Shown: positions 1 to 52,881 of the stretch, in pieces | How the letters are laid out: each line of letters opens with the position of its first letter | How positions within the stretch are numbered: the first letter of the stretch is position 1 | Assembly (NCBI GenBank): GCA_963663165.1 | Contig: OY760175.1 | Span: 1,760,001-1,824,000, forward strand | Source: an uncultured Desulfospira sp. | Lineage (GTDB): Bacteria; Desulfobacterota; Desulfobacteria; Desulfobacterales; Desulfobacteraceae | DNA: 64,000 nucleotides | Reading direction: 5' to 3' | Translations under genes and position numbers: made by a program | The notes under the pieces: model-generated | Told to the model about the DNA's origin: nothing | Seen by the model: the letters and a program-made list of their open reading frames with translations, nothing else | Database searches by the model: none

Positions 1-657
1 GAAGATGGATTTAAGCTTATGGGCGGGTTTTCCTGCCCCATCCCCGGGCAGGATGATCCCCTTGAAGGGATTCGCGTGGCGCCGGGTGCTGAGGTTAACG
101 CCGTGGTGTCCACCAGCGGGCTGGCCCTGGCCGAGCGGATGTATACGGATTTTGGAATTCCCTTTGTGGCGGGCATGCCGGTCGGGCTTTCCGGACGTGA
201 TGCCTTTCTGGCCATGCTGCACGGACAACGGCCTGAGTTTCAGCTGCCAAAACAGGAAACAACCCCTTACCGGCACGCCCTGGTTATTGGCGAACCAATC
301 ATGGGATACGGGGTCCGGCATTGCCTGCGTTATGATTTCGGCCTGCCCCGGGTGGACGTGATCTCAGTAACCCCCAGTGAACCGCTTTTCCGGGAATCCA
401 AAGGCCGGACCGGCATCTTGGCCGAACAGGGACCCGCAGATATGGACACGGACGACGAGCAGCAGATCACAGAATTGATGAATGACCCGGATGTGGACCT
501 GATTGTAGCGGACCCCTTTTACCAGGCCCTGCTCACCAAAGAGGCAGCGTTCATCCCTTTACCCCATGTGGCCATGAGTGCCCGGATTCATTGGGACATG
601 GGTTACGAATACGCCGTGGACAAGGGGTACGCGTATCTGGCCTCACGTCTGCAATGA
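1..657 (+). CDS. Nitrogenase component 1-type oxidoreductase family protein, 5'-partial
   Basis: The frame is open from base 1. 'AEVNAVVSTSGLALAERMYTDFGIPFVAGMPVG' and 'DLIVADP' resemble NifD/K/E/N-like oxidoreductase C-termini. Confidence 0.6.
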   Translation, partial: EDGFKLMGGFSCPIPGQDDPLEGIRVAPGAEVNAVVSTSGLALAERMYTDFGIPFVAGMPVGLSGRDAFLAMLHGQRPEFQLPKQETTPYRHALVIGEPIMGYGVRHCLRYDFGLPRVDVISVTPSEPLFRESKGRTGILAEQGPADMDTDDEQQITELMNDPDVDLIVADPFYQALLTKEAAFIPLPHVAMSARIHWDMGYEYAVDKGYAYLASRLQ

Positions 658-679
658 AAATGAACTTTCCCCTCAAACA

Positions 680-2644: not shown

Positions 2645-2800
2645 GGGGTCACATCCTCCAGGCTCCAAATAATTCGGGCTAAAGGATATCAGAGGATATA
2701 TGAAGAATTTATGAAGACGCCTCATTTTTCTCTTCACGGTTCCTTCATAGTGGTGGTGCTATCGTCCCTGAAACAAACCTAAAAAATTTTGGAGACCATC

Positions 2801-4486: not shown

Positions 4487-4499
4487 AGAAAATGGACAG

Positions 4500-5216
4500 T
4501 TAAAGAAATAATTCTACCGGCACCGGGCGGTTCAGGCAGATCCGCTCAAGATCAATGGATACGTCCCGGGTTATGATCCGAACCCCGTTGGCCGCTGCAT
4601 TCTTAAGTTTGTCAGCATATGCCGGATCAATATGGGAGGCCGGGGAAAATTGTCTGGCATCCATGCGCTGGATCAAATAGAAAATCACCCCCATGTCTCC
4701 TTCTTTGACCAGGCGGACCAGTTCATCAAGATGCTTTTGCCCCCGGGTGGTCACGGCATCGGGGAACATGGCCCTTCCCTGCTCCACCAGGGTGCAGTTT
4801 TTGATTTCCACAAAGCAAAGCTTTCCGGAAGGGCTTTCCAGCTTCAGGTCCAGGCGGGTGTGATCGCTTGTTTTTACCTCTGATGTTACCTTTTTAAAGG
4901 CAGCCAACTCCTCAACCAGGCCGGCTTTAATCGAGTCCCGGACCAGTCTGTTGGGCACCTGGGTATTGATGCCGACCATGGACTCGGGCATCCGGATCAG
5001 TTCCCAGGTGTATTTGAGCTTTCGTTTTGGATTGTCACTCTGGGAAATCCAGACCGGGGCATCGTTCAGGGCACACCCGGTCATGGCTCCGGAGTTGGGA
5101 CAATGGGCCGTAACGGTCTGCCCGTTTTCAAGGATCACATCCGCCAGAAACCGTTTATACCGCTTAACCAGCCGGCCGGCAATCAGCGGCGGCAGCTCAT
5201 ATCCGTTATATGTCAC
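4500..5216 (-). CDS. sfsA: DNA/RNA nuclease SfsA
   Basis: RYKRFLADV, AHCPNSGAM, VEIKNCTL and FPDAVTTRGQKHL are SfsA signatures. Confidence 0.93.
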   Translation of the reverse strand: MTYNGYELPPLIAGRLVKRYKRFLADVILENGQTVTAHCPNSGAMTGCALNDAPVWISQSDNPKRKLKYTWELIRMPESMVGINTQVPNRLVRDSIKAGLVEELAAFKKVTSEVKTSDHTRLDLKLESPSGKLCFVEIKNCTLVEQGRAMFPDAVTTRGQKHLDELVRLVKEGDMGVIFYLIQRMDARQFSPASHIDPAYADKLKNAAANGVRIITRDVSIDLERICLNRPVPVELFL

Positions 5217-38000: not shown

Positions 38001-40911
38001 TGATTACGATGAAGACTCCAACCTGGTGGCTCACCTGGATGCCCGGAAGGGGATCACCACCTTTGAATATGACGCAGCCAACCGGCTGAGAAGAAAAACC
38101 AATGCCCTGGGAAATACTGAAGAGACCGAATATGACCCGGCCGACCGGATCATCCGGAAAACAGACCCACGGGGAATTATAACCCTGCTTTCATATGATG
38201 CCGCAAGCAACCTGATCAGCCAAACCCTGGCTTCCGGCACAGATGATGAGACCGTCACCCAGTTTGAATATGACCTCAACAACCGGAAAACCCGGGAGAT
38301 CCATGTAATAACCGAAGGGAACCAGATTACGGCCTTTGAGTATGACGATCGGGGCTTGCTGACCCACAGGAAAAACGGGTTTCACACCGGTTCCCCGGAA
38401 ACCTGGGAGTATGAATATGACGAAGCCGGGCAACTGACGGCAACCACTGACCCCAACGGCAACACCACCCAGGTGTTCTATGATGCCGTTGGCCGCAAGA
38501 AAGCCCAAACCCAGGCCCAGGGCCTGGTGAAATATTACTGGGAGTACGACCTAGCCGGAAACGTCACCCTTGAAAGAAAACCCGAGGGAGAAGAAATCCA
38601 GAACGCCTATGATGCCCTCAACCGTCTTGTTCTGGAAACCAGGGGAGGCGACCAGCGCCGGTTTGAATATGACAGCAGGGGCCGTCTTACCCGTGAAGGA
38701 AACTTTAACGGGGATGCCACGCAATATCAATATGATTCAGCCGGCAGAATGATTCAAAAAACAGAAGCCGCCGGTACGGTCGATGAAGCCGTAAGTACGT
38801 ATGAATATGATGAAAACGGTAACCTGGTTGCTGTCACCAATCCTTTGCTCAAAACAGTGTCCTTTGAATATGATGCATTGAATCAGCGTATTACAGAAAC
38901 CGACAGTGACGGGGATTCAAAAACCATCACCTATGATGAAAACGGCAATGTCCTGGCCATTGAGAAAAAGGACGGCACAGACATAGAGTATGTCTGGGAT
39001 AATCTGAACCGGAAGACCGAGGTAATAGTTGGCAGCACCACTAAGCAAACCTTTGGTTATGACGAGCTTTCCAGGCTGGTTACTGCAACAGACAGCACCC
39101 ACACAACCACGTTCGCTTACAACGACTACGGACGCCTGGTAACAGAAACCCAAGGGTCTTATGAAGTTGCAAAGCTCTACGATGCCAACGGAAATAAAAC
39201 CCAAATTACCTATCCTTCAGGCCGGGTAGTTGAAAAAACCTACAATGAAAATGATGCCCTGTCAGAAATCCTATATCAGGGCAGTTCCATTGCAAGTCTT
39301 ACCCATGACCGGAACAACCGCCTGACAGCCGTGTCCTACGGAAACGGGACAGGCCTTGCCCTGGCATATGATGAACGGGAACGTGAAATCTCAAGAAGTT
39401 ATACAGGTTCCCTCTTTGCCCAGACAACGGAATATGACGCCCAGGGCAACATCCTCGAAGAGGCGTTAAATCGAAACGGCACCAGCCAGACAAAAGATTA
39501 CACCTACGACCATCTGGACAGGGTTGTCACAGCCACGCCTTTAACAACCTGGGATTATGATGCTGTGGGCAACTGGCTGTCTACCAACCAGAACGGTGCT
39601 GCCGAAACCAGAATGTCCAATGATGACAATGAATACACATCCATTGACGGTACGGCCTATACCCATGACGCCAACGGCAACCTGACCACGGACGGAACAA
39701 AAGACTATGTTTACGACTGGGCAGACCGGCTTATCCGGATAGAGGAGAGCTCCCAGATCCTGGCTGAGTACACTTATGATGCTGTGAACCGCAGGGTCAC
39801 CAAAACGGTGGGAACAACCGTAACCACCTTCATTTACGACGAAACAGATGTCATTGAAGAATACACCGACGGTGTATTTGACCGGGCCTTTGTTTACCGT
39901 AATACCATTGATAAACCAATCCTTCTGGAAACCGGCAGCCAGCTTTATTACTACATTACCGGGCGCCAGGGAAGCGTCCGGGCAATTGTTGATGACACCG
40001 GGACGTTGGTGGAATCGTACGAGTATACCCCCTTTGGCCTGATGACCATCTACGACAACCAGGGACAGGACATCACCGCAACCGGCTCCGCCATCAGCAA
40101 CCCGTTCGGATACACCGGCAGAAGATGGGATGGTGAATCCGGCCTGTGGTATTACCGAAACCGGATGTACTCTGCTGAATTAGGCCGGTTTCTCCAGCGG
40201 GACCCGGCCGGGTATGTCGATGGGCTTAATCTTTATATCTACGTCTCAAATAACCCTTTGCGGTTCACTGACCCTGACGGATTGATGGCGAAGGCTGCTT
40301 ATGACTATGTCAGCACTGATGTGTCAAATTGGTATGATAACAGTTTTTCATCAGTAATCTACGAAGATACCCCTGATAGAAAATACCTGCCGGTCATGAC
40401 GAATAATAATGACCTGCCTTTTTTAAGTGCTGCTATTCAAAATAACCTTCTTGCTCCTGCATGGAATACAGCAGCGAGCAGCCTCAATACTTTAAAGCAT
40501 GTTCAATCCGGCGTGCCGGTTTCTGAGTGGGAGCTTTTAGAAACTGCAGCTCTTATGGCACCTCTATCCAGAACTGTTACGAATAGTGCGAAGTATATTG
40601 GTTCTAAAATAGGCCCAAAGAGGGGAGTATTTCCCAAGAACGCAGATGATCTTCTATCCGAAATTCCAAGAAATAAAAAAGGACAAATTATCCCAAGTGA
40701 CAAGGTACGCATCCGTCCTGAGCAACACGCACTCAAACCTGGTGAAACATATGCACCACGGCACCATGGCCAACATTATCATGTCGAAATAAGAAAAAAC
40801 GTTAACAAAAGCTGGAATAATAAGAAAAACGTTATAAAAGTAAAGCCAGACAACTACGTTCAAGGTGAAGGAACTGGATTCTTGCCTGGTGAAAAATATC
40901 CGGGACTTTGA
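35044..40911 (+). CDS. Rhs4: signal-peptide Rhs toxin with basic His-rich CT (probable nuclease)
   Basis: MNAVTRNGW start; Rhs core; SNNPLRFTDPDG; CT RHHGQHYHVE. Confidence 0.9.
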   Translation: MNAVTRNGWASHFAVVIIMISACLCFLPYSSSFSSEASPSIITSPDYVDTGPISLDTGSLSATTQTDWRATYTIETDETGNTATFIQKASEAVNAAISAIGDPVDMASGEFYTEENPDFLIKSRGLDLSIIRKYRSQLIYNGPFGYGWTWKHAERILPLSGGDVKYYKNNGDALDLTSNGNGTYTYPPGSEFILAIESGQYVITQNRTRQKSYFSDQGYLVRKEDRFGNTLTFGYGNTSYPGQITAITDGLGRSLTLAYNSNGKVISITDFEGRSCSYLYSDISSGDGLGDDLIEFRGLDYQTSLDNATRYEYLSNQENVYLNHNMTKYTLPGGDYLEIGYYKNDQAAYHTNAKGETFNFMYSRLNRYAETWNEEGYYRKVFFNEANDVIRVANEDGTIEQMEYDEYGHHNKISHTDGNGYTTTFQYYPDGAADPQAYVKKRNLYLKTDAIGRAWTYQYNDTNNVYAPSQATDPAGNITRFEYYTNGSLHKKIQAPGYAFDANGDLVSNTNAPGFETVYEYDAYGNITRITDPSGQYKELTYDTNSLYLVTQKDKRGNETQYRYYEDFTENMPIGAVKSVTVKSGTSEYTTTYEYDQLGRKTKETDPLSQATQYQYTLDGKLEKITKPNGAVTQHIYDTARDIVSGAQIIETIDPLGNSVHFSYDATGKPIKKQDKNGNVFTFAYDKMGRLAKEVDPFRAVKHYVYDGNGNKTAIKLYDQAGVLLKETQFTYNAANQLVEKTIPCDFEEDGCEKTVQYQYTLDGKPQSQTIVFPEGDDLVTYYEYNALGQLIQETKGYGTDDARATQYRHDALGRLTRTIFPLGNSEVREYDANGNVTAVKIYDQSGTLLEETENIYDARNLLVETVDPLENSTYYTYDALGRKTEQFQFLTESGDMIQYQWQYDAVGNLAQETDPLGRLTRHGYDLNDQKAKTVDALGQTTAFEYDPNGNLTSVTNPDQSRTTTYYDALNRKIGVEDELGHIQTFDYDEDSNLVAHLDARKGITTFEYDAANRLRRKTNALGNTEETEYDPADRIIRKTDPRGIITLLSYDAASNLISQTLASGTDDETVTQFEYDLNNRKTREIHVITEGNQITAFEYDDRGLLTHRKNGFHTGSPETWEYEYDEAGQLTATTDPNGNTTQVFYDAVGRKKAQTQAQGLVKYYWEYDLAGNVTLERKPEGEEIQNAYDALNRLVLETRGGDQRRFEYDSRGRLTREGNFNGDATQYQYDSAGRMIQKTEAAGTVDEAVSTYEYDENGNLVAVTNPLLKTVSFEYDALNQRITETDSDGDSKTITYDENGNVLAIEKKDGTDIEYVWDNLNRKTEVIVGSTTKQTFGYDELSRLVTATDSTHTTTFAYNDYGRLVTETQGSYEVAKLYDANGNKTQITYPSGRVVEKTYNENDALSEILYQGSSIASLTHDRNNRLTAVSYGNGTGLALAYDEREREISRSYTGSLFAQTTEYDAQGNILEEALNRNGTSQTKDYTYDHLDRVVTATPLTTWDYDAVGNWLSTNQNGAAETRMSNDDNEYTSIDGTAYTHDANGNLTTDGTKDYVYDWADRLIRIEESSQILAEYTYDAVNRRVTKTVGTTVTTFIYDETDVIEEYTDGVFDRAFVYRNTIDKPILLETGSQLYYYITGRQGSVRAIVDDTGTLVESYEYTPFGLMTIYDNQGQDITATGSAISNPFGYTGRRWDGESGLWYYRNRMYSAELGRFLQRDPAGYVDGLNLYIYVSNNPLRFTDPDGLMAKAAYDYVSTDVSNWYDNSFSSVIYEDTPDRKYLPVMTNNNDLPFLSAAIQNNLLAPAWNTAASSLNTLKHVQSGVPVSEWELLETAALMAPLSRTVTNSAKYIGSKIGPKRGVFPKNADDLLSEIPRNKKGQIIPSDKVRIRPEQHALKPGETYAPRHHGQHYHVEIRKNVNKSWNNKKNVIKVKPDNYVQGEGTGFLPGEKYPGL

Positions 40912-42311: not shown

Positions 42312-42484
42312 CCGGTCCGAGCTAACCATAAGGAATCAAACGACTAATTGTTTTAGACGGGGCTTAAAACCATTTTAAACAACCGTTTTGGGCCCCCAAA
42401 TAACCATTTTAAGAAAATCGATGCCATAAAAAGCCCATTCGGTTTCATTTCCTTTTGCCAAAAAAGAATGACAGGGATAACCAT
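42312..42484 (+). repeat. Rhs 5' leader repeat copy
   Basis: Near-identical to 17991-18143 and continuing to the ATG at 42485. Confidence 0.85.
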
Positions 42485-42587
42485 ATGAACTTCCTTACCA
42501 GAAACGGATGGGCTTCACATTTTGCCGTTGTCATCGTTATGATATCGGCCTGTTTGTGTTTCCAGCCGTATTCTTTAGCTTTTGGTG
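42485..42587 (+). pseudogene. Truncated Rhs 5' end (signal peptide only)
   Basis: MNFLTRNGWASHFAVVIVMISACLCFQPYS matches the Rhs2/Rhs4 N-terminus, then breaks at the ggaact stutter. Confidence 0.8.
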
Positions 42588-42660
42588 GGTGGAACTGGTG
42601 GAACTGGGGTTGGAACTGCAGTGCGTGGGGTCAGGTCTTGAAATATAAGATTTTACCAAC

Positions 42661-42930
42661 CTAAGGAAAATACTTATAAATTTCACCCCGATGCAGGAAC
42701 CTGACAAAGCAGACGGTATCCTCTTCAATAACAAGGCCCAGGCGGTAGTCACCCATTCTGATACGGTAGTGGCTGCCCTGGGCCTTTAATTTTTTAAGGT
42801 TCCGGATCGCGTGGATGTCCGGGGCCTCTTCCACTTCCTGTATGATCTGCCGGACCCGGTCGAGCAACGGCCTGTCTGTTTTGCGTTTTTTTAAGTCCTT
42901 GGCAAAACTCTTTTTAAAATCGAGGATCAC
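42661..42930 (-). CDS. RelE/ParE family type II toxin
   Basis: KSFAKDLKK...YRIRMGDYRLG...HRGEIYKYFP. Confidence 0.88.
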   Translation of the reverse strand: MILDFKKSFAKDLKKRKTDRPLLDRVRQIIQEVEEAPDIHAIRNLKKLKAQGSHYRIRMGDYRLGLVIEEDTVCFVRFLHRGEIYKYFP

Positions 42931-43133
42931 GCCCGGCCTTCCAGTATATGAAATATCTCTTCTTTTGTGGCGGTGCCGGTGTTTTGCCCTTCCTGGATCG
43001 CCCGGCTCAGGGCAATGTCTTCCATGGCATCCACGATCATGTCATGGAAGATGTTCTGTTTTTCTTCGAGCATCTCGACAAGCGCTTCCTTGAAGACCTG
43101 TTTGAGCCTGCCCTCATCCATTACGGTCTGCAT
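42927..43133 (-). CDS. Putative antitoxin for RelE
   Basis: 68 aa acidic ORF overlapping the toxin start by 4 bp; EDIALSRAIQEG. Confidence 0.75.
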   Translation of the reverse strand: MQTVMDEGRLKQVFKEALVEMLEEKQNIFHDMIVDAMEDIALSRAIQEGQNTGTATKEEIFHILEGRA

Positions 43134-43152
43134 GGCGTCTCCTTACAAACAA

Positions 43153-43524
43153 TTAGGCCCGGGCCAGTTGTTCAAACTTATATTTTTTGATGAATGCATC
43201 CAGCAGGCTGGTCAGTACCTGCTGGTCTTCTTCGGGAAGCTGCTCTATCGCTTCGATATGCTTGAGAAGCTCCCGGCTTTTGATCTTGTTGATTGCCACG
43301 TTTGCTTCATCCCGCAGCAGGTAATCCAGGCTGACGTCAAACACGGAAGCAATTTTAACGACCATGTTGGTGGGCGGACAAACCACCCCCCGTTCGTATT
43401 TGGATATCAACTGGACATTCACGCCCAGTTTGTTGCCGAGCTGCCCCTGGGACAAGCCCCGGCCCTGGCGCAGTTTTTTTAACTTATCAGGCAATCCGGA
43501 TATAATGGCTTTGCTGTTATTCAT
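43153..43524 (-). CDS. Xre-family HTH repressor
   Basis: LKKLRQGRGLSQGQLG...ISKYERG...VSLDYLL; AAGGAGG RBS before ATG 43524; divergent from the primase operon. Confidence 0.88.
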   Translation of the reverse strand: MNNSKAIISGLPDKLKKLRQGRGLSQGQLGNKLGVNVQLISKYERGVVCPPTNMVVKIASVFDVSLDYLLRDEANVAINKIKSRELLKHIEAIEQLPEEDQQVLTSLLDAFIKKYKFEQLARA

Positions 43525-43684
43525 AAGCTCCTCCTTGCCTGTATTCTCTATAAATATGGGGCTGTGTGCAAACATATTTTTTCTTGACAATAACTTTAAA
43601 GGATACTAACTAAGCATATAAAGTTATGCTTTTTGTCGTAAAAAGCAAGTTTATTTTGATATCAGGGATGTTTTTAGAAAAGAA

Positions 43685-43726
43685 GGCCATCAACCCGAAC
43701 TCGCCAAAGTCAACCGGTTGATGGCC
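43685..43726. promoter_or_regulatory. Stem-loop in the Xre/primase divergent intergenic region
   Basis: ggccatcaacc-N20-ggttgatggcc, a perfect 11 bp stem. Confidence 0.5.
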
Positions 43727-43830
43727 GAAAAAAACAAATCACAAAAGGCAAAGCCCGTTTGTAACCGTTTTCTTTTTCTATCATATCTCCCGGTAAAAAT
43801 TCAATCTGTGTAATCAAGGGAGGTGAACCT

Positions 43831-44142
43831 GTGACATTTACCCAACGGTTCTACGAGATCGCCTGCATGTTCCCGGTGATGACCAGCAAAGGCGTACAGC
43901 AAGGCGATATCCCCGGCATCAGGAAGGATCGGTTCTGTGCTGATGACCTGGCCGGGTTTGTCTATGAGGGCGGCGGCAGGGCCTGGAGCACCGGAGAAAA
44001 GCTTGTATTAGAATTTCTGCTGAATCTGTACAACCCGGGAGCCTTTGACAAGTTCAACATCGGCTTTGCCATGAACGTATGGGACCCCACCCATATGAGA
44101 GCCTGTTTTAAGGCCATGGCAAGGATTTACAGCGGAGAGTGA
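43831..44142 (+). CDS. Hypothetical protein of the element
   Basis: Strong RBS (ggaggtg) before GTG; first gene of the primase operon. Confidence 0.7.
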   Translation: MTFTQRFYEIACMFPVMTSKGVQQGDIPGIRKDRFCADDLAGFVYEGGGRAWSTGEKLVLEFLLNLYNPGAFDKFNIGFAMNVWDPTHMRACFKAMARIYSGE

Positions 44143-44182
44143 CCCATGAACAGACAACGCCTTCGGAACAGCGGGATAAAAC

Positions 44183-46855
44183 ATGATAGAAAAAGAGACC
44201 ATAGAACGGATCAAAACATCTGTAGACCTTAAATCCCTGGTGGAGTCCAGGGGTATCGAACTCAAAAAAAACGGCAAGGGCTGGTTCGGCCTGTGCCCCT
44301 TCCATGATGACAAAACCCCGTCTTTATCCGTCACCCCGTCCAAAAACGAATGGCACTGCTTTGGTTGCGGTGCCGGAGGAGATGTGATCCGGTTTGTGGA
44401 GATGTTTGACCGGGTGGATTTTAAAGAGGCGGTTAGACGGCTTGGCGGTGATGAGGTAGAAAAAACCGCAGTTAAAATAAAAAAAGAGGACCCGGCCCCG
44501 AAACTGACACCCGGCCATATCAAGCTGTTCAACCGGGTTATTGAATTTTACCACGAAGCCTTTGCCGAAGATGGCCGGGCACGGCAGTACCTGAAAGGAC
44601 GGGGCATCACGGATAACTCCCTGCCTTCCGACCACCGGATCGGCTTTGCCAACGGCTCCCTGCTGAACGTGCTGCCCAATGATGCCAAAATCACAGGGCA
44701 GTTAAAAGATCTGGGCATCCTGAACGTCAACGGGAAGGAGCATTTTTACGGCTGTGCCGTGTTCCCGCTCTACGATTTTAACGGGAACCCTGCCGGGATG
44801 TATGGCCGCCGTATTGACGGCATGACCCAAGGCGCCGGCCATCTGTATCTTCCCGGCAGCCGGGAAGGTCTGTTCAACCGCCAGGCAGCCAAGGCCCACA
44901 AAAAGATTATCCTTACAGAATCCGTTCTGGACAGCCTGACCCTGATCAATGCCGGGTTTAAAAACACCATCCCGTGTTACGGCACCAACGGCCTGACCCA
45001 ATCCCATATCAAGTGGCTTACACAAACCCAGGTAGAAACCGTCTACATATGTTTTGACGCAGACGAGGCAGGCCAGGCCGCCACGCCTGTGGTTGGTGAG
45101 CACTTAACCCAAGCCGGGATCACCACGCACCCCATAACACTTCCCAACGGCCAGGACATCAATGATTTTTTTCTTTTAACCGCCAATCCCAAAGAGGGGT
45201 TCAACGCCCTGATTGGTCAGGCCAACCCTGCGGTTAAAAAAGAAAAGGACCTGAAAGTTACCAAAACAGATTTTGGCTTTACCATGGCGGTTGCCGACCG
45301 CAGATACGAGGTCCGGGGGATCAGCAAAAAAGGCGGCAAGCTTAAGGCCACGGTCAAGGGCATTGACCCTAAAAAACGCATGCACGTAGACACCGTGGAT
45401 TTTTACTCGGCACGGTCCAGGACCTTTCTTCTCAAGGGACTGGCTGACCTGTTCGGCGCAGACGAGGCTGCCGTTACCCAGGACCTTGCCAAGCTGACGG
45501 AACAGGCCGAACAAAACCAGGTTCCGGATCAGGACAACAAGGCTGCCACAGCCATGACGTTCCAGGACAAGACCGAAGCCTTGCGGTTCCTGGAGAACCC
45601 GGACATGTTCGCTGAGATCCTCACCGATTTTGAAACCCTTGGCTACACCGGAGAAGAGATGAACAAGCTGCTCTGCTACGTGGCGGCGATCTCCCGCAAG
45701 ATGGATCACCCCCTGTCGGTCATGATCCAGTCCAGGTCCGCCGCAGGCAAGTCCTATCTCCAGGACACGGCCCTGTCCCTTGTGCCCAAAGAAGATTATA
45801 TCAAGTACACCCGGCTGACGGACCAGGCCCTGTTTTACACGGGCAAGGAGAGTCTGAAGCACAAAATCCTTGCCATTGAAGAACTGGACGGCATGAACGG
45901 GGCCATCTACTCTATCCGCAGCATCCAAAGTTCCAAGGAGATCACCATTGCCTATACGGGCAAGGACAGTGCCACCGGCGAACAACGAACCATGGAGAAC
46001 AAGGTGGAAGGGCCGTTGATGGTCTTTATCACCACCACCCAGGTGGACATTGACGGAGAAACCGCATCCAGGTTCGTGTTCATCTCCATTGACGAATCCG
46101 AAGACATGACCAAAAAAGTCCTGGCCAAGCAGCGGCAGACCCACACCATGCAGGGCATGCTCAACAAGCTCAAATCAGAAGAGATTATTAAAAAGCACCA
46201 TAATGCCAACCGGATGATGCGGCCCCTTCATGTGTTCAACCCCTATGCCGAATTGCTGACCTTTACCAGCAGGTCTTTAAGGGCCAGAAGGGATCACACC
46301 AAATACCTGAACCTGATATCAGCCGTGGCCTACCTGTTCCAGTACCAGAAAAAGGTGCAGACCTTTGAATTTAAGGACCAGTCCATTGAATACGTGAACG
46401 TCACCCTGGCCGACATAGAAAAGGCCAACACCATTGCCAACTACGTTTTGGGCAGAAGCCTGGATGATCTAAGCCCCCCTTCAAGGAAACTGCTCATGCT
46501 GATCCGGCAGATGTGCCGGGACAAAAAAGAAGACTTCCATTTTAACCGCCGCCAGATCCGGGAGTACAGCGGATGGAGCGACTTCCAGGTCAGGACCCAT
46601 ATTCGGCAGCTTGAAGACCTGGAGTACATCTACTCGCTCATGGGCAAACGGGGCAAAGAATACGTTTACGAACTGGCCTACAACGGCGAAGGAGACGACG
46701 GTAAACCCTTTGTGATCGGGCTTACAGACATTAAGCAGTTAAAAGAAAAAGCCAAAGAAGCCGGTATCACCGATGACAACGAGGGGGAAAATTACAACTA
46801 CGAGCATGAAGGCGTTAACTACGAGGGTGGTTCAAGCCCCCATAGAGGGCACTAA
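44183..46855 (+). CDS. CHC2 zinc-finger/Toprim DNA primase fused to P-loop NTPase (primase-helicase)
   Basis: CPFHDD...CFGC zinc finger; TESVLD and FDAD Toprim motifs; SRSAAGKS Walker A-like; IEELD Walker B-like. Confidence 0.88.
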   Translation: MIEKETIERIKTSVDLKSLVESRGIELKKNGKGWFGLCPFHDDKTPSLSVTPSKNEWHCFGCGAGGDVIRFVEMFDRVDFKEAVRRLGGDEVEKTAVKIKKEDPAPKLTPGHIKLFNRVIEFYHEAFAEDGRARQYLKGRGITDNSLPSDHRIGFANGSLLNVLPNDAKITGQLKDLGILNVNGKEHFYGCAVFPLYDFNGNPAGMYGRRIDGMTQGAGHLYLPGSREGLFNRQAAKAHKKIILTESVLDSLTLINAGFKNTIPCYGTNGLTQSHIKWLTQTQVETVYICFDADEAGQAATPVVGEHLTQAGITTHPITLPNGQDINDFFLLTANPKEGFNALIGQANPAVKKEKDLKVTKTDFGFTMAVADRRYEVRGISKKGGKLKATVKGIDPKKRMHVDTVDFYSARSRTFLLKGLADLFGADEAAVTQDLAKLTEQAEQNQVPDQDNKAATAMTFQDKTEALRFLENPDMFAEILTDFETLGYTGEEMNKLLCYVAAISRKMDHPLSVMIQSRSAAGKSYLQDTALSLVPKEDYIKYTRLTDQALFYTGKESLKHKILAIEELDGMNGAIYSIRSIQSSKEITIAYTGKDSATGEQRTMENKVEGPLMVFITTTQVDIDGETASRFVFISIDESEDMTKKVLAKQRQTHTMQGMLNKLKSEEIIKKHHNANRMMRPLHVFNPYAELLTFTSRSLRARRDHTKYLNLISAVAYLFQYQKKVQTFEFKDQSIEYVNVTLADIEKANTIANYVLGRSLDDLSPPSRKLLMLIRQMCRDKKEDFHFNRRQIREYSGWSDFQVRTHIRQLEDLEYIYSLMGKRGKEYVYELAYNGEGDDGKPFVIGLTDIKQLKEKAKEAGITDDNEGENYNYEHEGVNYEGGSSPHRGH
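46775..46837 (+). repeat. Three 21-bp-spaced iteron-like repeats in the primase 3' end
   Basis: gacaacgag / aactacgag / aactacgag, with CGAG at 46780, 46801 and 46822. Confidence 0.45.
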
Positions 46856-46958
46856 GTGATTTTTCTTTTAACCGCTAAAAAGCCCTTATACCAAGGCATT
46901 GAAACGAATATACCCCCAAGTTCGAGGCAACCGGGGCAAAAGTAATTAAGGAGCAAGC

Positions 46959-47150
46959 ATGACATTTATAGAAGCCGTAAGGGAACTTGACCTGAAAGAT
47001 CCGTTGACCCGGGAGCCTGTACGCCCAAGTGAACTGATACGGATACTCAAGGAAGATGTTGTTCTGTCTGTGGAGCGGCCCGGCTCCTGGGAAGGGTCGA
47101 ATATGCTGGAGGTACTGACCAGCCACGGCTTTTTTACCCATCAGGATTGA
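46959..47150 (+). CDS. Small hypothetical protein
   Basis: AAGGAG RBS; fills the gap between the primase and the first recombinase. Confidence 0.6.
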   Translation: MTFIEAVRELDLKDPLTREPVRPSELIRILKEDVVLSVERPGSWEGSNMLEVLTSHGFFTHQD

Positions 47151-47161
47151 AAGGAGGGAAT

Positions 47162-48124
47162 ATGGTTAAAAACCTGTTGTTCCGGTTCCGGGAAAACCTC
47201 AGGGTGACAGGCAGAAGCCCGTCAACAGTAAAGGCATATGCCATGCACACAAGGGATTTTTTTGATGTCATGGAGATCAGGGCTGTTAAAAAGGTTACCA
47301 CGCCTGTTATAGAATCCTGGATCGCAGGGCTGCGTGACTCAAAGAGTGCCAAGGGCAAGCCTTACAGTGATGCAACCATCCAAATTAAGATACGCTCAAT
47401 CAAGCGGTTTTTTGAGTTTCTGGAGAGGACCAACATTATCTTTATCAATCCTGCAGAGTTTATCAAGGAATCCAAAGTAAAGACCCCGATCAAGCCGGCA
47501 CTGACTTTTGAAGAAGCGAAACGGATACTGGACCAGCCAAACTTAAGCACAATAACCGGCATCCGGGACCGGACCATACTGGAGGTTTTTTACACCACCG
47601 GGATACGGCTCAACGAGTTATGTTCCCTGACCATTTATGACGCAGATCTGCAGGGCGGTGTGCTGCGGATCAACAAGGGCAAAGGAGCCAGGGACCGGGT
47701 GGTGCCCTTAGGCAAACATGCAGTCAAGTTCCTGCGGGAGTATATCTCCAAGGTCAGGCCTAGGTTTGCCAAAAAAAACAGGACCTGCCGATCCCTGTTT
47801 ATGGGTTCTTTGGGCAAGCCCGTGTCCAAGGCGGTTGTAGCCTTCATGATCCTTAAAAACCGGAAAGCGGCTAAAATAAAAAAACAAGTTACTGCCCACA
47901 CGTTCCGCCACACCTTTGCAACGGTGCTGGTAAAAAACGGTGCGGACATCCGGGCGGTCCAGAAGATGCTGGGCCATGTGGATATCAGAACCACCCAAGG
48001 TTATATCCGGTCCCTGGGCCTGGATATTAAAAAGGAACACCGGAAAACCCATCCAAGGGAAAAGGACAAAGAAAACATCACCAACCCCAGGATAAAAGGG
48101 ATTATGGATCATCATGAAAGATAA
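47162..48124 (+). CDS. XerC/D-like tyrosine recombinase 1
   Basis: GIRLNE, HTFRH, LGH and TTQGY catalytic motifs; AAGGAGG RBS. Confidence 0.92.
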   Translation: MVKNLLFRFRENLRVTGRSPSTVKAYAMHTRDFFDVMEIRAVKKVTTPVIESWIAGLRDSKSAKGKPYSDATIQIKIRSIKRFFEFLERTNIIFINPAEFIKESKVKTPIKPALTFEEAKRILDQPNLSTITGIRDRTILEVFYTTGIRLNELCSLTIYDADLQGGVLRINKGKGARDRVVPLGKHAVKFLREYISKVRPRFAKKNRTCRSLFMGSLGKPVSKAVVAFMILKNRKAAKIKKQVTAHTFRHTFATVLVKNGADIRAVQKMLGHVDIRTTQGYIRSLGLDIKKEHRKTHPREKDKENITNPRIKGIMDHHER

Positions 48125-49049
48125 TCCGTTCAAGCCGTATATTGATCAGTTCCGGCTGGCCCTGAAGGTCCGGAACCTGACCGGCAAGACCATTGAACAA
48201 ATCTGTTGGAAGCTGGGCAGGTTCACGGCCTGGCTGATGGAAAGCCAGGTCTTGTCTGTTGACGCCATCACCAAGGATGCGGTCAGGTCCTACCAGGTGG
48301 AGCTTTACCAGGCAATCAATGCAAGAGGCAGGCAGAACGGCGTGGCCTATCAAAATTCTATGATGTCTGCGGTCCGGCAGTTCACAAGGTTCCTGTATGA
48401 AAGGGACTTTATCGTGTCTGACCCGGCAAGGGACATCCAGTATGCCAAAATACCTAAAGCCCTGCCCAAGGGGATATTGAGCCCGGCGGAAGCCAGAAAG
48501 ATCATCCATGCCCCTGATATTACCAGCGTAATCGGATACCGGGACCGGGTGATCCTGGAGGTGCTTTATACCAGCGGTATCCGCAAAGAGGAGCTAAACC
48601 ACCTGACCCTGGCCGATGTGGACTGCCATGACGGTTTTTTGAGGATAGACAACGGCAAAGGGCAAAAGGACCGGATCGTCCCCTTGGGCCGGATCGCCTG
48701 CCGGTATCTTGAAAATTATATCACATCCGTCCGTCCGGAACTGATCAGGGACCCGTACAACACCCACCTGTTCCTATCCCTGAGAGGCAACCGGCTGTCT
48801 AAAAACGTGGTATGGGCACTGGTGAAAAAATACGCCAAAAAGGCAAAGATACGAAAAAACGTCCATCCCCATACGTTCCGGCACTCCTGCGCAACCGGCA
48901 TGTTGAAAAACAAGGCGGATCTAAACACCATCCGCAAGCTTTTGGGCCATACATCATTGAATACCACACAGATCTATACCCACCTGAATATCACAGAGTT
49001 AAAGGCGGTTCACAAGCAATGCCATCCCCGGGAGAAAGACAGAGAGTAG
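48114..49049 (+). CDS. XerC/D-like tyrosine recombinase 2
   Basis: GIRKEE, HTFRH, LGH, TTQIY; overlaps recombinase 1; both end in HPREKD. Confidence 0.92.
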   Translation: MKDNPFKPYIDQFRLALKVRNLTGKTIEQICWKLGRFTAWLMESQVLSVDAITKDAVRSYQVELYQAINARGRQNGVAYQNSMMSAVRQFTRFLYERDFIVSDPARDIQYAKIPKALPKGILSPAEARKIIHAPDITSVIGYRDRVILEVLYTSGIRKEELNHLTLADVDCHDGFLRIDNGKGQKDRIVPLGRIACRYLENYITSVRPELIRDPYNTHLFLSLRGNRLSKNVVWALVKKYAKKAKIRKNVHPHTFRHSCATGMLKNKADLNTIRKLLGHTSLNTTQIYTHLNITELKAVHKQCHPREKDRE

Positions 49050-49052
49050 TTG

Positions 49053-49541
49053 TTTTTTCTTTTAACTGCGGTTTTTAAACAAGGATCGTCTCCGGTGCTC
49101 GGGCTTCACCCCTGGCGGGGTTCCGCTCCCTGCGCCCGGAGCCGGCCCTATTTTATGCCCACCCAACCACCCTTTAAATGCGGATGGCTGCGCCGCCTTA
49201 TTTTATATCCCCGCCCGCCCGGCGGAAGGGCTGTTCCGGCGCTACGGGCACGCCGGTCGCTCCACATTGCGTAAAGTCGTTGCGTTCGGCGTGTCCGATA
49301 AGGCGGCCTTATCAGACACGGCCGGTCCGTCACAGGTCTTGCAAACTGCCGCAATACCCGCGCCGGACCGCCTTCCCTCTCTACACTAGACATAACAAAC
49401 ATTATGTCTCCTTTGCGCAATGCTCCGCTTCCTTTGCGCCCTGCGCACCTCCACAACCCTTCCGCTCCCCTTAAAAAAGGATGAAACCCCATTTTATATG
49501 CCGGCTGACGCCAGCACCAAGCATGCAGTTAAAAGAAAAAA
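49053..49541. other. GC-rich non-coding segment closed by a perfect 17 bp inverted repeat
   Basis: ttttttcttttaactgc (49053-49069) / gcagttaaaagaaaaaa (49525-49541). Confidence 0.6.
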
Positions 49542-49728
49542 ACCATCCTCAATTTTATTTTTAACAGCCTGGGAAATCCTTTGATCAAAGGCTCAATCCA
49601 TAGTATGAATCACCAAAGAAGCAGTGGCAGAGTTTGGTTACGCTGAAATTAATTTTAGGTAAAAAACAGTTCTTTTACAACTTGGATAATCCGGATGGAA
49701 GGCTTGCCAATAAAGAGATTGCGCTTGG

Positions 49729-50619
49729 TTGGCAAAATCGTCTAATGGGATTATTTGTTCAAACAATCCATTGAGGTTCACAGATCCTGATGGCTTGATG
49801 GCGAAAAATACTGTTCAATGGATGTCTGATCATCCTATCCCTGGTCCGGACGACCTTTTATCGAGCGGCTTGCATTATCTATCAGATTCATTGGGGCAAC
49901 AAACAACTACAAATTGGGGGGATCAATTAGGGGCAACTATTTTAAAAACAACTGTTGATGTTGGCGCGGGTATTGTTGATTCTCCTGAAGCCTTGGCAAA
50001 TCAGACTTATGAATGGTCCAGAGATATTACAAATTGGAATAAATTACCAATATTGGGGACTAATGCTGTTGCTATGGCTAAGACAACCTCGGATTTTATT
50101 AATAATCCAAACTGGACAACAGGTTCTCAAATGGTTGGGGCATATTCTAGTGCGGTTTTATTAACTATAGGGGGAACGCAGCTCTTAAAAGGGCCTATTG
50201 GAAACATTGGGTCTAAAAATAAAGCAATAGGACTTGTTAAAAATGAATATCAAAATCTTATTTCTTCTGGGATGAGTCATCGAGAAATTGGCCCTGCCAT
50301 TTCAATCGCTCGAGATATGAAAGCTGGAAAATTTAGCCAAATTTATCGCAATGATTCGCTTGGCAACATGCCTTCAAATTTAAGCGATCCTATTGCCATC
50401 AGACTTTACAGTGCACCAGAGTATATAAAAACAAAAGGAATTGCTTCTCATTCTGAAATATATGCCGTAGATGAATTGCTAAAAGCAAGACCGAAAGCTG
50501 CGCTTGAAGATATCTCGGTGTTTACAATGGAGGTTAAAAAAGCATCATTACGCGGAACTTATAAACCTGCTTGTCCACATTGTGCTCATTTATTAGAAGG
50601 AGTTGACTACATTAAATAA
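49729..50619 (+). CDS. Orphan Rhs CT: YwqJ-like deaminase toxin
   Basis: Rhs homology begins at 49756 (CSNNPLRFTDPDGLMAK); zinc deaminase motifs HSE and PACPHC. Confidence 0.82.
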   Translation: MAKSSNGIICSNNPLRFTDPDGLMAKNTVQWMSDHPIPGPDDLLSSGLHYLSDSLGQQTTTNWGDQLGATILKTTVDVGAGIVDSPEALANQTYEWSRDITNWNKLPILGTNAVAMAKTTSDFINNPNWTTGSQMVGAYSSAVLLTIGGTQLLKGPIGNIGSKNKAIGLVKNEYQNLISSGMSHREIGPAISIARDMKAGKFSQIYRNDSLGNMPSNLSDPIAIRLYSAPEYIKTKGIASHSEIYAVDELLKARPKAALEDISVFTMEVKKASLRGTYKPACPHCAHLLEGVDYIK

Positions 50620-50634
50620 TATGGATTACAGACA

Positions 50635-51033
50635 ATGACAAATAGAGTTAATGAAAATTATTTGGATTTCGATGGTGACCAAAGTATTCTTGACGGGAAA
50701 CCATTTACAGGCATTGGTTTTCTTGAACATCCTGATCATTCTCTGAAAAGAGAGTTCAACTATTTAGATGGATTTGAACATGGCTTATGCCAAGAATGGT
50801 ACTCCAACGGGCAGCTAAAGCGCAAATGGACAGCAGTACGTGGACAAGCAAAAGGAACAGTATATCAGTGGCATGAAAACGGAGAAAAAAAATCGGTAGG
50901 AGAATACGATTTCGGCGTTGAGACAGCATATAAGGAATGGGATGAAAAAGGGGAATTAATTATCGATAGAAAAATCGATGAAAATTCAAATCTTTATAGC
51001 TATTTAATGGATATGAAGGAGAAGCGGGGTTAA
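50635..51033 (+). CDS. YwqK-family (MORN-variant repeat) immunity protein
   Basis: DGKPFTG, HGLCQEWYSNGQLK and WHENGEKK repeats; directly after the deaminase. Confidence 0.85.
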   Translation: MTNRVNENYLDFDGDQSILDGKPFTGIGFLEHPDHSLKREFNYLDGFEHGLCQEWYSNGQLKRKWTAVRGQAKGTVYQWHENGEKKSVGEYDFGVETAYKEWDEKGELIIDRKIDENSNLYSYLMDMKEKRG

Positions 51034-51050
51034 ATACGGTGAAAAATAAG

Positions 51051-51551
51051 TTATAAAGGGTTTTTGCTAATTTGATCAACGTGTTTTAAGAGAGTCGGGA
51101 TTCTATATTTTCCGTGCATTTGAGAAATATGTTTTGCGGCAAGTTGCTGATCAATACCTGCGGCCGTAATATAGAGGGGTTTTTTACTTTTCCCTCTAAC
51201 GATTTTATCAGCCATATCGGATTGTTTGAAGCTGTTTTTAGCAACTCCGATTATTGGGGTTTTTTGATTCAATTTATTGTATAGATGAGCTCCTAAGCCC
51301 GGAGATTGGTGGATATCTAACCATACATAGCCATCAATTAAAATAAACTCAGGTGATTCAGGGATAAGTTTTAAGACTTTAAGAATACACGGCAGCTCTC
51401 GGAGATAAAATTGCCCTGGGACATACGGTTCGATTTTAAAAACTGTTGTATGGAATTGAGCAGTAGGGCTTGAGTCAGTCCATTCTTTAAACAATATGCA
51501 TGCGGCAACTGCCTGGTGATCGTAATAATGAACGTCTACACAAGCTATCAT
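51051..51551 (-). CDS. Endonuclease V family protein
   Basis: CVDVHY, YVPGQFYLRELP, LIDGYV, GLGAHL, IGVAK, RIPTLLK. Confidence 0.85.
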   Translation of the reverse strand: MIACVDVHYYDHQAVAACILFKEWTDSSPTAQFHTTVFKIEPYVPGQFYLRELPCILKVLKLIPESPEFILIDGYVWLDIHQSPGLGAHLYNKLNQKTPIIGVAKNSFKQSDMADKIVRGKSKKPLYITAAGIDQQLAAKHISQMHGKYRIPTLLKHVDQISKNPL

Positions 51552-51620: not shown

Positions 51621-51847
51621 AAATATAAGATTTTACCAACCTAAGGAAAATACTTATAAATTTCACCCCGATGCAGGAACCTGACAAAGCAGACGGTATC
51701 CTCTTCAATAACAAGGCCCAGGCGGTAGTCATCCATCCTGATACGGTAGTGGCTGCCCTGGGCCTTTAACTTTTTAAAGTTCCGGATCGCGTGGATGTCC
51801 GGGGCCTCTTCCACTCCCTGTATGATCTGCCGGACCCGGTCAAGCAA
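51621..51847 (-). pseudogene. 5'-truncated duplicate of relE
   Basis: Near-identical to 42641-42867 (offset 8980); lacks the N-terminal codons and the antitoxin. Confidence 0.85.
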
Positions 51848-52488: not shown

Positions 52489-52881
52489 ACGCGACTTGGG
52501 GTCACACGCGACTTGGGGTCAGGTCTTGCGCGACTTGGGGTCAGGTCTTGAAATATAAGTTTTTGATTTGGGGTCCCGGTTTTATTTTTAACTGCCTTGA
52601 AAATCCCTTGAAGGGCACCATGTTGAGCGAAGCGAATAAACCATCGTTGAGCAGAGCGAATAAGGCAGGACGCAAAGTAGACCCCTTTAAAAAAGTGGGC
52701 CTACTTTGCATGTCCTGTCACCCTAACGCCCTATCTTTTTATGGCTTAACCTGATTTTTTATATTTGAATATAGTTAAAATATATTTTCGTATAATAGCC
52801 TATAGAAAAACAGAAAATGATATAATTATCTATATTAACAAACAATTATAGATAAGAGCAAGCCAAGGGCCAGGTCTAAAT

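What the first reader, a model, noticed from the sequence alone, without database searches (positions are those of the whole stretch)
49730..49800. dif-like candidate att site fused in register to the Rhs core end
The junction reads aaatcgtcTAAtgggaTTAtttgttcaaacaatcca. The TAA-N5-TTA dyad resembles XerCD dif (TAA-N6-TTA), and its right arm runs directly into tgt-tca-aac-aat-cca (CSNNP). Rhs2 has tat-tgt-cta-aat-aac at the equivalent place, so exchange at 'ttgt' would keep the frame. Rhs4 shares the peptide SNNPLRFTDPDGLMAK but with many synonymous differences, so this is not a simple target duplication. An in-frame TTG at 49729 could also let the element express the tip itself (speculative).
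Basis: partly seen in the sequence, partly recalled or inferred. Interest (0 to 1): 0.75.

Follow-up and report, generated by a model that had tools for sequence, protein, structure and literature searches.

The report
Recombinase site inside Rhs toxin gene end

Summary
The letters quoted are there, but TAA-N5-TTA is chance level: 13 in the window, 1,497 in the genome. It is kept in only 2 of 11 homologous ends.

What is conserved is a 28-bp imperfect palindrome 10.5 nt to the right: ATGGGATTATT 49745-49755, TGTTCA 49756-49761, AACAATCCATT 49762-49772. Its right arm is the N-N-P-L codons of the Rhs core end.

It closes a 7.1-kb backbone (42657-49787: DnaG-like primase plus two tandem Xer-like tyrosine recombinases). 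That backbone is 90% identical in a same-genus genome, G001. Relatives occur in 40 other Desulfobacterota and metagenome loci. All 17 of 17 loci with at least 1,100 nt after the second recombinase carry such a site.

In G001 one 8.4-kb unit (tip, immunity, backbone) sits in two different Rhs genes. Identity jumps from 60-85% to 100% exactly at the left edge of the 6-nt centre.

Best reading (0.72): an integrative element that inserts in frame at Rhs core ends, supplies a new tip and pushes the old tip downstream.

The window's copy has no matching left site. No recombinase binding, circular form or empty site was shown.

The parts
42657..49787 (+). Conserved element backbone. Homology to the three copies in same-genus genome G001 ends inside the finding.
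   Evidence: blastn gives 89.5-89.8% identity over 6.6-7.1 kb to L004, L005 and L006. It stops at 49780-49787.
42967..43482 (+). Backbone ORF of 171 aa, no known family
   Evidence: 91% identical in G001 and weaker in L050 and L072. No Pfam or PHROG hit.
43831..44142 (+). Backbone ORF of 103 aa, no known family
   Evidence: 97% identical in G001. At 44-49% identity it lies after rec2 in L015, L021 and L055.
44183..46855 (+). DnaG-like primase of 890 aa (CHC2 zinc ribbon, Toprim, long C-terminal part)
   Evidence: Pfam, NCBIfam dnaG domain, PHROG primases. It sits upstream of rec1-rec2 in every locus with enough DNA.
47147..48124 (+). Tyrosine recombinase 1 (Xer-like, 325 aa)
   Evidence: Pfam Phage_integrase plus SAM-like domain. 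XerC/XerD models are hit below their cut-offs. The R, K, HxxR, H and Y motifs align with rec2.
48114..49049 (+). Tyrosine recombinase 2 (Xer-like, 311 aa). Overlaps rec1 by 11 nt.
   Evidence: Best solved relative is XerD 1a0p at 1.8e-45, with the catalytic motifs aligned.
49053..49568 (.). Conserved segment between rec2 and the site. It holds a 17-nt perfect inverted repeat (49053-49069 / 49525-49541) around 455 nt, and an AT-rich hairpin GCAGTTAAAAGAAAAAA...TTTTATTTTTAACAGC (49525-49568).
   Evidence: 91% identical to genome position 1259579-1260041. The hairpin is conserved in distant relatives. Function unknown.
49745..49755 (+). Predicted left arm of the core site (ATGGGATTATT).
   Evidence: 8 of 11 positions complementary to the right arm. 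Family consensus is ACCGGATnATT.
49756..49761 (+). Predicted 6-nt central (strand-exchange) region, TGTTCA
   Evidence: Geometry. In G001, L015 and L050 the identity between the Rhs side and the backbone side begins at the left edge of this centre, or one base before it.
49762..49772 (+). Predicted right arm (AACAATCCATT), which is codons N-N-P-L of the Rhs core end
49762..50619 (+). Rhs tip without a shell. It holds the core-end motif NNPLRFTDPDGL and then a toxin domain with a weak YwqJ-like deaminase match. Only 18 codons are open upstream.
   Evidence: (PF14431, 3.8e-05, below cut-off).
50635..51033 (+). Candidate immunity gene (132 aa, weak MORN-repeat match)
   Evidence: Position directly after the tip. 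Pfam hit is below cut-off.
51621..51847 (+). Second copy of the backbone's left end (97% to 42641-42867). Probably the remnant of a second, decayed tandem element to which the tip at 49762 belonged.
   Evidence: Tandem arrays with the same order occur in G001, L056, L060 and L065.
42313..42583 (+). Fragment of an Rhs 5' region directly left of the backbone. The element's left side is rearranged here.
   Evidence: 81-95% identical to the upstream and start regions of Rhs2, Rhs3 and Rhs5.
40246..40292 (+). Rhs5 core end, the only candidate left site in the window. Not a matching partner.
   Evidence: 47 nt at 83% identity to 49759-49805. Centre GTCTCA against TGTTCA, 3 of 6. Left-arm symmetry 1 of 11.
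52575..52857 (+). 283-nt segment 'B' with a terminator-like hairpin. In G001 it lies inside each element, between the immunity gene and the backbone.
   Evidence: 94% identical to L004, L005 and L006. Sequence context.

Best explanation
The finding is the right-end recombination site of an integrative element of about 8 kb.

The element encodes a DnaG-like primase and two tandem Xer-like tyrosine recombinases. It ends in a 28-bp, dif-like (11-6-11) imperfect palindrome. The right arm of that palindrome is the N-N-P-(L/V) codons found at the end of every Rhs core.

Proposed cycle:
1. The excised circle carries the site followed directly by the element's own promoterless tip and immunity genes.
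2. The recombinases exchange strands in the 6-nt centre with the same codons of a chromosomal Rhs gene.
3. The Rhs shell is thereby fused in frame to the element's tip.
4. The resident tip and its immunity gene end up behind the element's right end as an 'orphan'.

Shown here:
- the conserved gene module;
- the conserved palindrome in register with the codons;
- the same 8.4-kb unit in two different Rhs genes, with both boundaries inside the site;
- tandem arrays;
- tips that diverge right after the site.

Inferred:
- that rec1 and rec2 catalyse the exchange;
- that there is a circular, primase-replicated intermediate;
- that cleavage flanks the 6-nt centre;
- that the fused toxin is functional.

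In this window the copy has intact genes and an intact right site. Its left side is rearranged, and the tip at 49762 probably belonged to a second, decayed tandem copy.
For: 1. Homology between the window and three G001 copies runs from 42657 to 49780-49787 at about 90% and stops within the core-end codons. The tips differ after that point.

2. In G001 an 8,388-8,393-nt unit is 99.9% identical at two loci. Its order is core end, tip, immunity gene, segment B, backbone, core end. In L005 the unit begins inside a long Rhs ORF (2..4759) at 4370.

3. The two host Rhs genes are 60-85% identical per 100 nt upstream of the site and 100% identical downstream. The last mismatch is at -7, immediately left of the 6-nt centre GCCCTA. 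On the right, copies diverge 15 or 29 nt after the centre begins.

4. Two further lineages show the same pattern. In L050 the Rhs-side and backbone-side sites share 24 nt and are followed by different tips. In L015 the identity starts at the centre.

5. The symmetry scan over 11 sites gives 79 of 110 complementary pairs at one centre, against a mean of 28.6 (sd 9.6). L019 is a perfect 11-6-11 palindrome.

6. A site abutting NNP/NDP codons lies 236-1,394 nt after rec2 in 17 of 17 loci with at least 1,100 nt downstream, and in 7 of 25 shorter loci. The control found 2 sites in 234,290 nt.

7. The order primase, rec1, rec2 is conserved wherever DNA is available.

8. Both recombinases keep the R, K, HxxR, H and Y motifs.

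9. The element is sporadic. Among 60 relatives, only G001 has a close homologue. G002, of the same genus and 100% complete, has none above Xer-level similarity.

10. Of 14 Rhs-type core ends in this genome, only the finding's has the left arm: 8 of 11, against 1-4 of 11 for the others.
Against: - No recombinase binding, excised circle or restored empty site was seen. The only public runs are stored as assembled contigs and gave nothing on excision.
- No orthologous empty site with the displaced tip was found in this genome.
- In the window there is no matching left site. The Rhs5 centre matches 3 of 6 and the Rhs2 centre 4 of 6. An Rhs 5' fragment abuts the backbone.
- Rhs-side sites have no symmetric left arm: 0-3 of 10 positions complementary in the ten Rhs-side sites and 1-4 of 11 in this genome's 13 other core ends. 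The target would therefore be a half-site, which is unusual for Xer-type systems.
- In L015 the flanking repeat is 2,238 nt. Homologous recombination could explain that case.
- Centres differ between successive sites of the L056 and L060 arrays.
- Many of the 42 loci are related, so the counts overstate independence.
- The window's palindrome alone is not significant as a fold.
Confidence: 0.72

Rival explanations
1. Integron-like platform. The recombinases and the site stay put behind an Rhs locus and capture small tip-immunity cassettes, each carrying its own copy of the site. The whole 8-kb element does not move. Tips would reach the Rhs gene by a second exchange.
For: L052 has at least three successive cassettes after rec2. 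Each is preceded by the same roughly 136-170 nt plus the full palindrome, with no backbone between them. L021 has a backbone-less site copy at 19364. The roughly 200 nt upstream of the site are conserved.
Against: In G001 the unit that is identical at two Rhs genes includes the whole backbone. Arrays in G001, L056, L060 and L065 repeat the backbone too. NCBIfam integron-integrase scores are far below cut-off. The two readings are not exclusive: the small cassettes could be non-autonomous derivatives of the element.
Confidence: 0.15
2. An ordinary orphan Rhs tip left by RecA-dependent C-terminal displacement. The neighbouring primase and recombinase genes belong to an unrelated island that happens to lie next to it.
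For: Orphan tips with short core-end remnants are common in Rhs loci (passages in PMC5727410). The window has five Rhs copies to recombine with. L015's 2,238-nt repeat fits homologous exchange.
Against: The tip is linked to the recombinase pair in 17 of 17 testable loci. The backbone supplies a conserved left arm found at none of the 13 other core ends of this genome. Both boundaries of the G001 unit fall within 29 nt, which is very short for RecA.
Confidence: 0.08
3. A true dif-type site used by the host XerCD, as the TAA-N5-TTA reading implies. The element would then be an IMEX-like hitch-hiker on the chromosome dimer resolution system.
For: The site has 28-bp 11-6-11 geometry and the recombinases are Xer-like.
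Against: The element brings its own recombinase pair. By eye, the arms (ACCGGATnATT / AATnATCCGGT) do not resemble the dif arms quoted for Neisseria in PMC10210955. The targets are multi-copy Rhs genes, not a terminus site.
Confidence: 0.03

Closest known systems
Xer recombination at dif, and elements that integrate there (IMEX such as CTX-phi and the gonococcal genetic island; passages in PMC10210955 and abstract of PMC6744903)
   Same: Both involve a pair of Xer-type tyrosine recombinases and a 28-bp site with two 11-nt inverted arms and a 6-nt centre. Integration and excision would go through that site.
   Different: The recombinases are element-encoded paralogues scoring below the XerC/XerD equivalog cut-offs. 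The site sequence is unrelated to dif. The target is the coding end of Rhs genes, not the replication terminus. The target lacks one arm.
Rhs C-terminal displacement and orphan tips (Jackson 2009, seen only as a reference; Koskiniemi 2014, seen only as a reference; passages in Steele 2017, PMC5727410)
   Same: A new tip replaces the old one at the PxxxxDPxGL end of the core. The old tip and immunity gene accumulate downstream as orphans.
   Different: Displacement has been ascribed to homologous recombination through core homology. Here a dedicated mobile element with its own recombinases and a defined 28-bp site appears to do it. Steele 2017 noted integrase-like genes near Rhs loci without a site or mechanism. 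Kirchberger 2017 states there is no evidence for an integrase in effector-immunity insertion.
[quoted passage not shown]
   Same: A tyrosine recombinase lies next to arrays of polymorphic-toxin-related cassettes with conserved intergenic motifs.
   Different: rAID has one recombinase and arrays of orphan immunity genes, and no primase. Here each cassette begins with an in-frame toxin tip, and the site lies in the toxin gene's conserved codons.
Integrons
   Same: Recombinase gene(s) sit next to a site where cassettes stack, with older cassettes pushed away. L052 shows such stacking.
   Different: There is no IntI-type integrase. Sites are double-stranded palindromes in coding sequence rather than attC hairpins. 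The whole element, including the recombinase genes, is duplicated at new targets.
Islands and phages that integrate into the 3' end of a tRNA or protein gene and carry a replacement 3' end (general knowledge, recalled)
   Same: The attachment site overlaps the 3' part of a gene, and the element supplies a substitute end so that the gene stays intact.
   Different: Here the substitute end is deliberately different: a new toxin domain with its immunity gene. Integration therefore changes the gene's function instead of preserving it.

Membership tests
Xer-type tyrosine recombinases | Phage_integrase catalytic domain with an N-terminal SAM-like core-binding domain, about 300 aa, and no arm-binding domain | tested here: met
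   Pfam PF00589 with PF02899/PF13495 in both proteins, which are 325 and 311 aa.
Xer-type tyrosine recombinases | Catalytic R, K, HxxR, H/W and Y (the list of residues is recalled) | tested here: met
   rec2 aligned to XerD 1a0p shows ..GIRKEEL.., GKGQKDR, HTFRH, LLGH and QIYTH. rec1 aligned to rec2 keeps the same positions.
Housekeeping XerC / XerD (orthologues) | Score above the NCBIfam equivalog cut-off | tested here: not met
   TIGR02225 scores 236.5 and 251.6 against a cut-off of 329.6. TIGR02224 scores 222.2 and 247.1 against 335.15.
dif-type recombination site | 28 bp: two roughly 11-nt inverted arms around a 6-nt centre | tested here: met
   One symmetry centre gives 79 of 110 complementary pairs. 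Arm symmetry is 7-11 of 11 in the 24 sites found at 42 loci. The window scores 8 of 11.
The family arms ACCGGATnATT / AATnATCCGGT were compared by eye with the Neisseria dif sequences quoted in PMC10210955. No formal alignment was run, and the host's own dif was not identified.
dif-type recombination site | Single site at the replication terminus, used by host XerCD with FtsK | not tested
   The terminus was not mapped. The sites here lie in multi-copy Rhs loci.
Site-specific integrative mobile element | The same element at different chromosomal targets, bounded by short direct repeats of the attachment site | tested here: met
   In G001 an 8.4-kb unit, 99.9% identical, sits in two Rhs genes that are 60-85% identical. 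The boundaries lie within 15-29 nt. L050 has a 24-nt repeat.
Site-specific integrative mobile element | Intact attL and attR around the copy in this window | tested here: not met
   No second site with the centre TGTTCA exists in the window or the genome. The backbone's left side abuts an Rhs 5' fragment.
Site-specific integrative mobile element | Excised circular form, or an empty target site | not testable with these tools
   Public runs are held as contigs only. No orthologous empty site was found.
Rhs orphan (dissociated) tip-immunity module | Core-end motif PxxxxDPxGL followed by a unique tip and a small downstream gene, without the Rhs shell | tested here: met
   NNPLRFTDPDGL lies at 49762-49797. 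Only 18 codons are open upstream. A 132-aa ORF follows.
Integron | IntI-type integrase with attI/attC cassettes | tested here: not met
   Integron-integrase models score 113-123 bits against a cut-off of 265. Cassette-like stacking was seen only in L052.
rAID system | One tyrosine recombinase followed by an array of short orphan immunity genes, in Bacteroidales (definition from passages in PMC12247911) | tested here: not met
   Here there are two recombinases plus a primase. What follows is a toxin tip in frame with the site. The hosts are Desulfobacterota.

The most novel reading that the evidence does not exclude
Desulfobacterota harbour a family of self-replicating 'tip-swapping' elements. 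Their Xer-like recombinase pair recombines a 28-bp site embedded in the last conserved Rhs codons. A single integration would re-arm an Rhs toxin in frame, bring the matching immunity gene and archive the old tip downstream. Backbone-less cassettes carrying only the site, as in L052, would be moved in trans. That would make the system an integron analogue for polymorphic toxins and give a dedicated enzymatic mechanism for Rhs C-terminal displacement.
Probability: 0.55. Interest if true: 0.88.

Novelty: new variant of a known kind. Interest (0 to 1): 0.8.

Why it matters
How Rhs and other polymorphic toxins exchange their C-terminal tips has been ascribed to homologous recombination through the conserved core. 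Papers I could read state that no integrase has been tied to the process (PMC5361080 passage). One only notes integrase-like genes nearby (PMC5727410 passage).

A mobile element whose attachment site is the conserved end of the toxin's shell gene would give that process a defined enzyme, a defined site and a vehicle for horizontal spread of toxin-immunity pairs.

It is directly testable with a recombination assay. It could also serve as a tool for in-frame domain swapping.

My five literature searches found no description of such a site. Subscription-only papers were not searchable.

Tried and rejected
- **Public reads.** No RNA holder is listed. The four runs laid are Logan contigs. They showed only the G001-type internal joint (52857 to 42657 with 21 nt between) and joints explainable by paralogous Rhs sequence. 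Nothing bears on excision.
- **Empty site.** This genome's orthologue of the G001 array locus (3.25 Mb) has a different tip and only a 47-nt backbone scrap. The second G001 locus has no Rhs counterpart here.
- **DNA searches in same-genus genomes.** The orphan module (49788-51600) and the stretch 40293-42640 were searched in G001 and G002. Nothing useful came back.
- **Own expression of the tip from TTG 49729.** The start is not conserved. No plus-strand promoter-like site and no terminator-like site were found in 48900-49900.
- **Small backbone ORFs.** No Pfam or PHROG family matched.
- **Viral contigs.** No relative of rec2 was found.
- **More distant recombinase pairs.** Pairs at about 40% identity (G051, G031) and the decayed related copy at 1.25 Mb have no such palindrome.
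- **Fold of the window's site as single-stranded DNA.** Not significant.
- **Earlier notes of this scan.** Nothing was recorded near the place or by sequence. Four word hits concerned other genomes and did not bear on this finding.
- **Opposite-strand control.** It is not independent, because a palindrome matches on both strands (8 sites). I rely on the upstream-DNA control instead.

Full report
**1. What is in the window**

The window lies in a 6.74-Mb, 50% G+C genome. A same-genus relative carries the record title 'uncultured Desulfospira sp.'.

- It holds four full Rhs genes and one fragment. Their core ends (PxxxxDPxGL) lie at about 16.8, 23.6, 30.4, 33.4 and 40.3 kb.
- Downstream lie a DnaG-like primase (44183-46855) and two tandem tyrosine recombinases (47147-48124, 48114-49049).
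- Then comes a short ORF (49729-50619). After 18 open codons it reads NNPLRFTDPDGLMAK and continues into a tip with a weak YwqJ-deaminase match.
- A small MORN-like ORF follows, then an endonuclease V fragment on the other strand.

**2. The observation**

The quoted letters are correct: TAA 49743-45, TGGGA 49746-50, TTA 49751-53.

The dyad is at chance level. There are 13 TAA-N5-TTA in the window and 1,497 in the genome. At 11 homologous element ends the letters are kept in 2 of 11.

**3. What the junction is**

*Homology stops inside the finding.* A self-comparison and a search of 60 relatives led to G001 (same genus). G001 has three copies of the same element. Four matches were listed, but two contig ends overlap. 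Window-to-G001 homology runs from 42657 to 49780-49787 at about 90%. It ends inside the finding, within the NNP...DP codons. After that point every copy has a different tip.

*The repeat unit in G001.* The unit is 8,388-8,393 nt at 99.9% identity. Its order is core end, tip, immunity gene, a 283-nt segment B, backbone, core end. It occurs twice in tandem behind one Rhs gene and once inside another. In the second locus the unit starts inside the long Rhs ORF (L005 2..4759, from 4370). The element therefore supplies that gene's expressed tip, and a different tip follows the element's right end.

*The boundaries are sharp.* The two host Rhs genes are 60-85% identical per 100 nt up to the site and 100% identical beyond it. 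The last mismatch is at -7 from the first N codon. On the right, copies diverge 15 or 29 nt later. Both boundaries of an 8.4-kb insertion thus fall within 29 nt.

**4. The site**

Aligning 11 backbone-to-tip junctions showed one symmetry centre, 9.5 nt before the P codon. It gives 79 of 110 complementary pairs. The mean over 118 centres is 28.6 (sd 9.6) and the next best centre gives 50.

The best geometry is 11-6-11.
- L019 is perfect: ACCGGATCATT-GTCAGC-AATGATCCGGT.
- L015 scores 9 of 11.
- The window reads ATGGGATTATT-TGTTCA-AACAATCCATT (49745-49772), 8 of 11.

The right arm is always the N-(N/D)-P-(V/L) codons. The left arm is backbone DNA.

In G001 and L015 the identity between the Rhs side and the backbone side starts exactly at the first base of the 6-nt centre. 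In L050 it starts one base earlier. This is what conservative site-specific exchange predicts.

**5. How general it is**

Scans of genome and metagenome collections with rec2 gave 40 further loci at 55% identity or more. All are from Desulfobacterota or unnamed metagenome contigs.

Four loci were dropped before counting:
- L008-L010, which duplicate G001;
- L022, a partial fragment;
- L071, with no downstream DNA.

The order primase, rec1, rec2 holds wherever DNA is present.

I defined a site as arm symmetry of at least 7 of 11 abutting NNP/NDP codons.
- It lies 236-1,394 nt after rec2 in 17 of 17 loci with at least 1,100 nt downstream, counting the window and G001.
- It also lies there in 7 of 25 shorter loci.
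- The same detector found 2 sites in 234,290 nt of upstream DNA on both strands.

Many loci are related, so these counts are not independent.

Tandem arrays occur in G001, L056, L060 and L065. L052 has at least three backbone-less cassettes that each repeat about 170 nt including the site.

**6. The enzymes**

Both recombinases are Xer-like.
- The XerC and XerD models are the top hits but score below their equivalog cut-offs.
- XerD is the best solved relative.
- The catalytic motifs are intact in both.

Integron-integrase and invertase models score far lower.

**7. Mechanism proposed**

See Best explanation. The shown steps are the anatomy and the boundaries. The inferred steps are catalysis by rec1 and rec2, a circular primase-replicated intermediate, cleavage at the edges of the 6-nt centre, and function of the fused toxin.

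**8. What speaks against it, or is unresolved**

- Rhs-side sites have no symmetric left arm: 0-3 of 10 positions complementary in the ten Rhs-side sites and 1-4 of 11 in this genome's 13 other core ends. The chromosomal partner would therefore be a half-site.
- In the window no partner shares the centre TGTTCA. Rhs2 reads TGTCTA and Rhs5 reads GTCTCA.
- The backbone's left side abuts an Rhs 5' fragment.
- A 227-nt copy of the backbone's left end follows the orphan module. I read the orphan as the tip of a second, decayed tandem copy, but the history of 42.3-42.9 kb and 51.6-52.9 kb is not resolved.
- L015's 2,238-nt flanking repeat is compatible with homologous recombination.
- No circle, empty site or binding was shown.

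**9. Comparison with what is known**

The architecture matches Xer/dif. Membership as a dif site is not met (see Membership tests).

The biological outcome matches Rhs C-terminal displacement. For that process, the papers I could read give no enzyme:
- PMC5727410, passage: Rhs-associated integrase-like genes, role unknown;
- PMC3482391, passage: polyimmunity loci next to XerC/D;
- PMC12247911, abstract and passages: rAID.

Jackson 2009 and Koskiniemi 2014 were seen only as references. Five full-text searches found no description of a recombinase site in the Rhs core end. Subscription journals were not covered.

**10. Verdict**

- Its dyad is chance.
- Its idea is largely borne out: a dif-like attachment site in register with the Rhs core end, with exchange near 'ttgt'. 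The true site is shifted 10.5 nt to the right.
- The element family appears to be a new variant of an integrative element that swaps toxin tips.

Noticed in passing
window 44468, 45168, 46735, 46860, 49054, 49525, 49553, 52580: An AT-rich 16-17-nt motif, GC(A/G)GTTAAAA(G/T)AAAAA, recurs about eight times in both orientations inside the element. GCAGTTAAAAGAAAAA occurs only 4 times in the whole genome, 3 of them here. One pair is a perfect 17-nt inverted repeat around 455 nt just after rec2. Another pair forms a hairpin about 200 nt before the site, and that hairpin is conserved in distant relatives. It may be an origin for the primase or an accessory recombination site. It remains unexplained.
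   Followed up: partly
window 51051-51551 (-): A truncated endonuclease V gene (166 aa, profile positions 19-144 of 198) lies directly behind a deaminase-like Rhs tip and its candidate immunity gene. This may be a repair function linked to a deaminase toxin.
   Followed up: no
window 52575-52857; L005 5234-5612; L003 (genome 3252292-3252550): The 283-nt segment B starts with a perfect GC-rich hairpin plus a T run. In G001 it is bracketed by a 13-nt direct repeat, CATCA(A/G)C(C/T)TAA(G/C)G. It is absent from the backbone remnant at 4.42 Mb. It looks like a small insertion within the element.
   Followed up: partly
window 52483-52543: Three tandem 22-nt repeats (GGTCACACGCGACTTGGGGTCA-like) lie at the break between an Rhs 5' fragment and segment B. 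A related GGGGTCAGG motif also sits at 42626.
   Followed up: no
window 32694-34118: The Rhs fragment (474 aa) has the same core end and tip start as Rhs3 (25034-31003). It is a partial duplicate rather than a distinct gene.
   Followed up: no
L001 (genome 1246001-1266000): This is a decayed relative of the element. It holds a truncated primase, one recombinase at 41% identity to rec2, an IS21-like insertion (rve plus AAA), a RepB-type primase, a Fic protein, and the 460-nt post-rec2 segment at 91% identity. All lie a few kb upstream of another Rhs gene. No palindromic site was found there.
   Followed up: partly
L002 (genome 4417234, 4418611, 4420399-4421531): Two Rhs-core fragments with tips are followed 1.8 kb later by a 1.1-kb remnant of the backbone's left part (94% identity). 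This is a second decayed copy in the same genome, in the order tip, then backbone.
   Followed up: partly
L052 4361-4532, 5495-5666, 6894-6971: At least three successive tip cassettes after rec2 each repeat about 170 nt including the full palindrome, with no backbone between them. They may be non-autonomous mini-elements or an integron-like array.
   Followed up: partly
L021 1102, 17574, 18430, 19364: Desulfosarcina alkanivorans PL12 carries several orphan tips around one element. One of them (19364) keeps the element-type left arm without a backbone.
   Followed up: no
window 9214-17511: Rhs1 is unusually long (2,765 aa). It has an N-terminal transglutaminase-like domain ahead of DUF6531 and the RHS repeats.
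   Followed up: no
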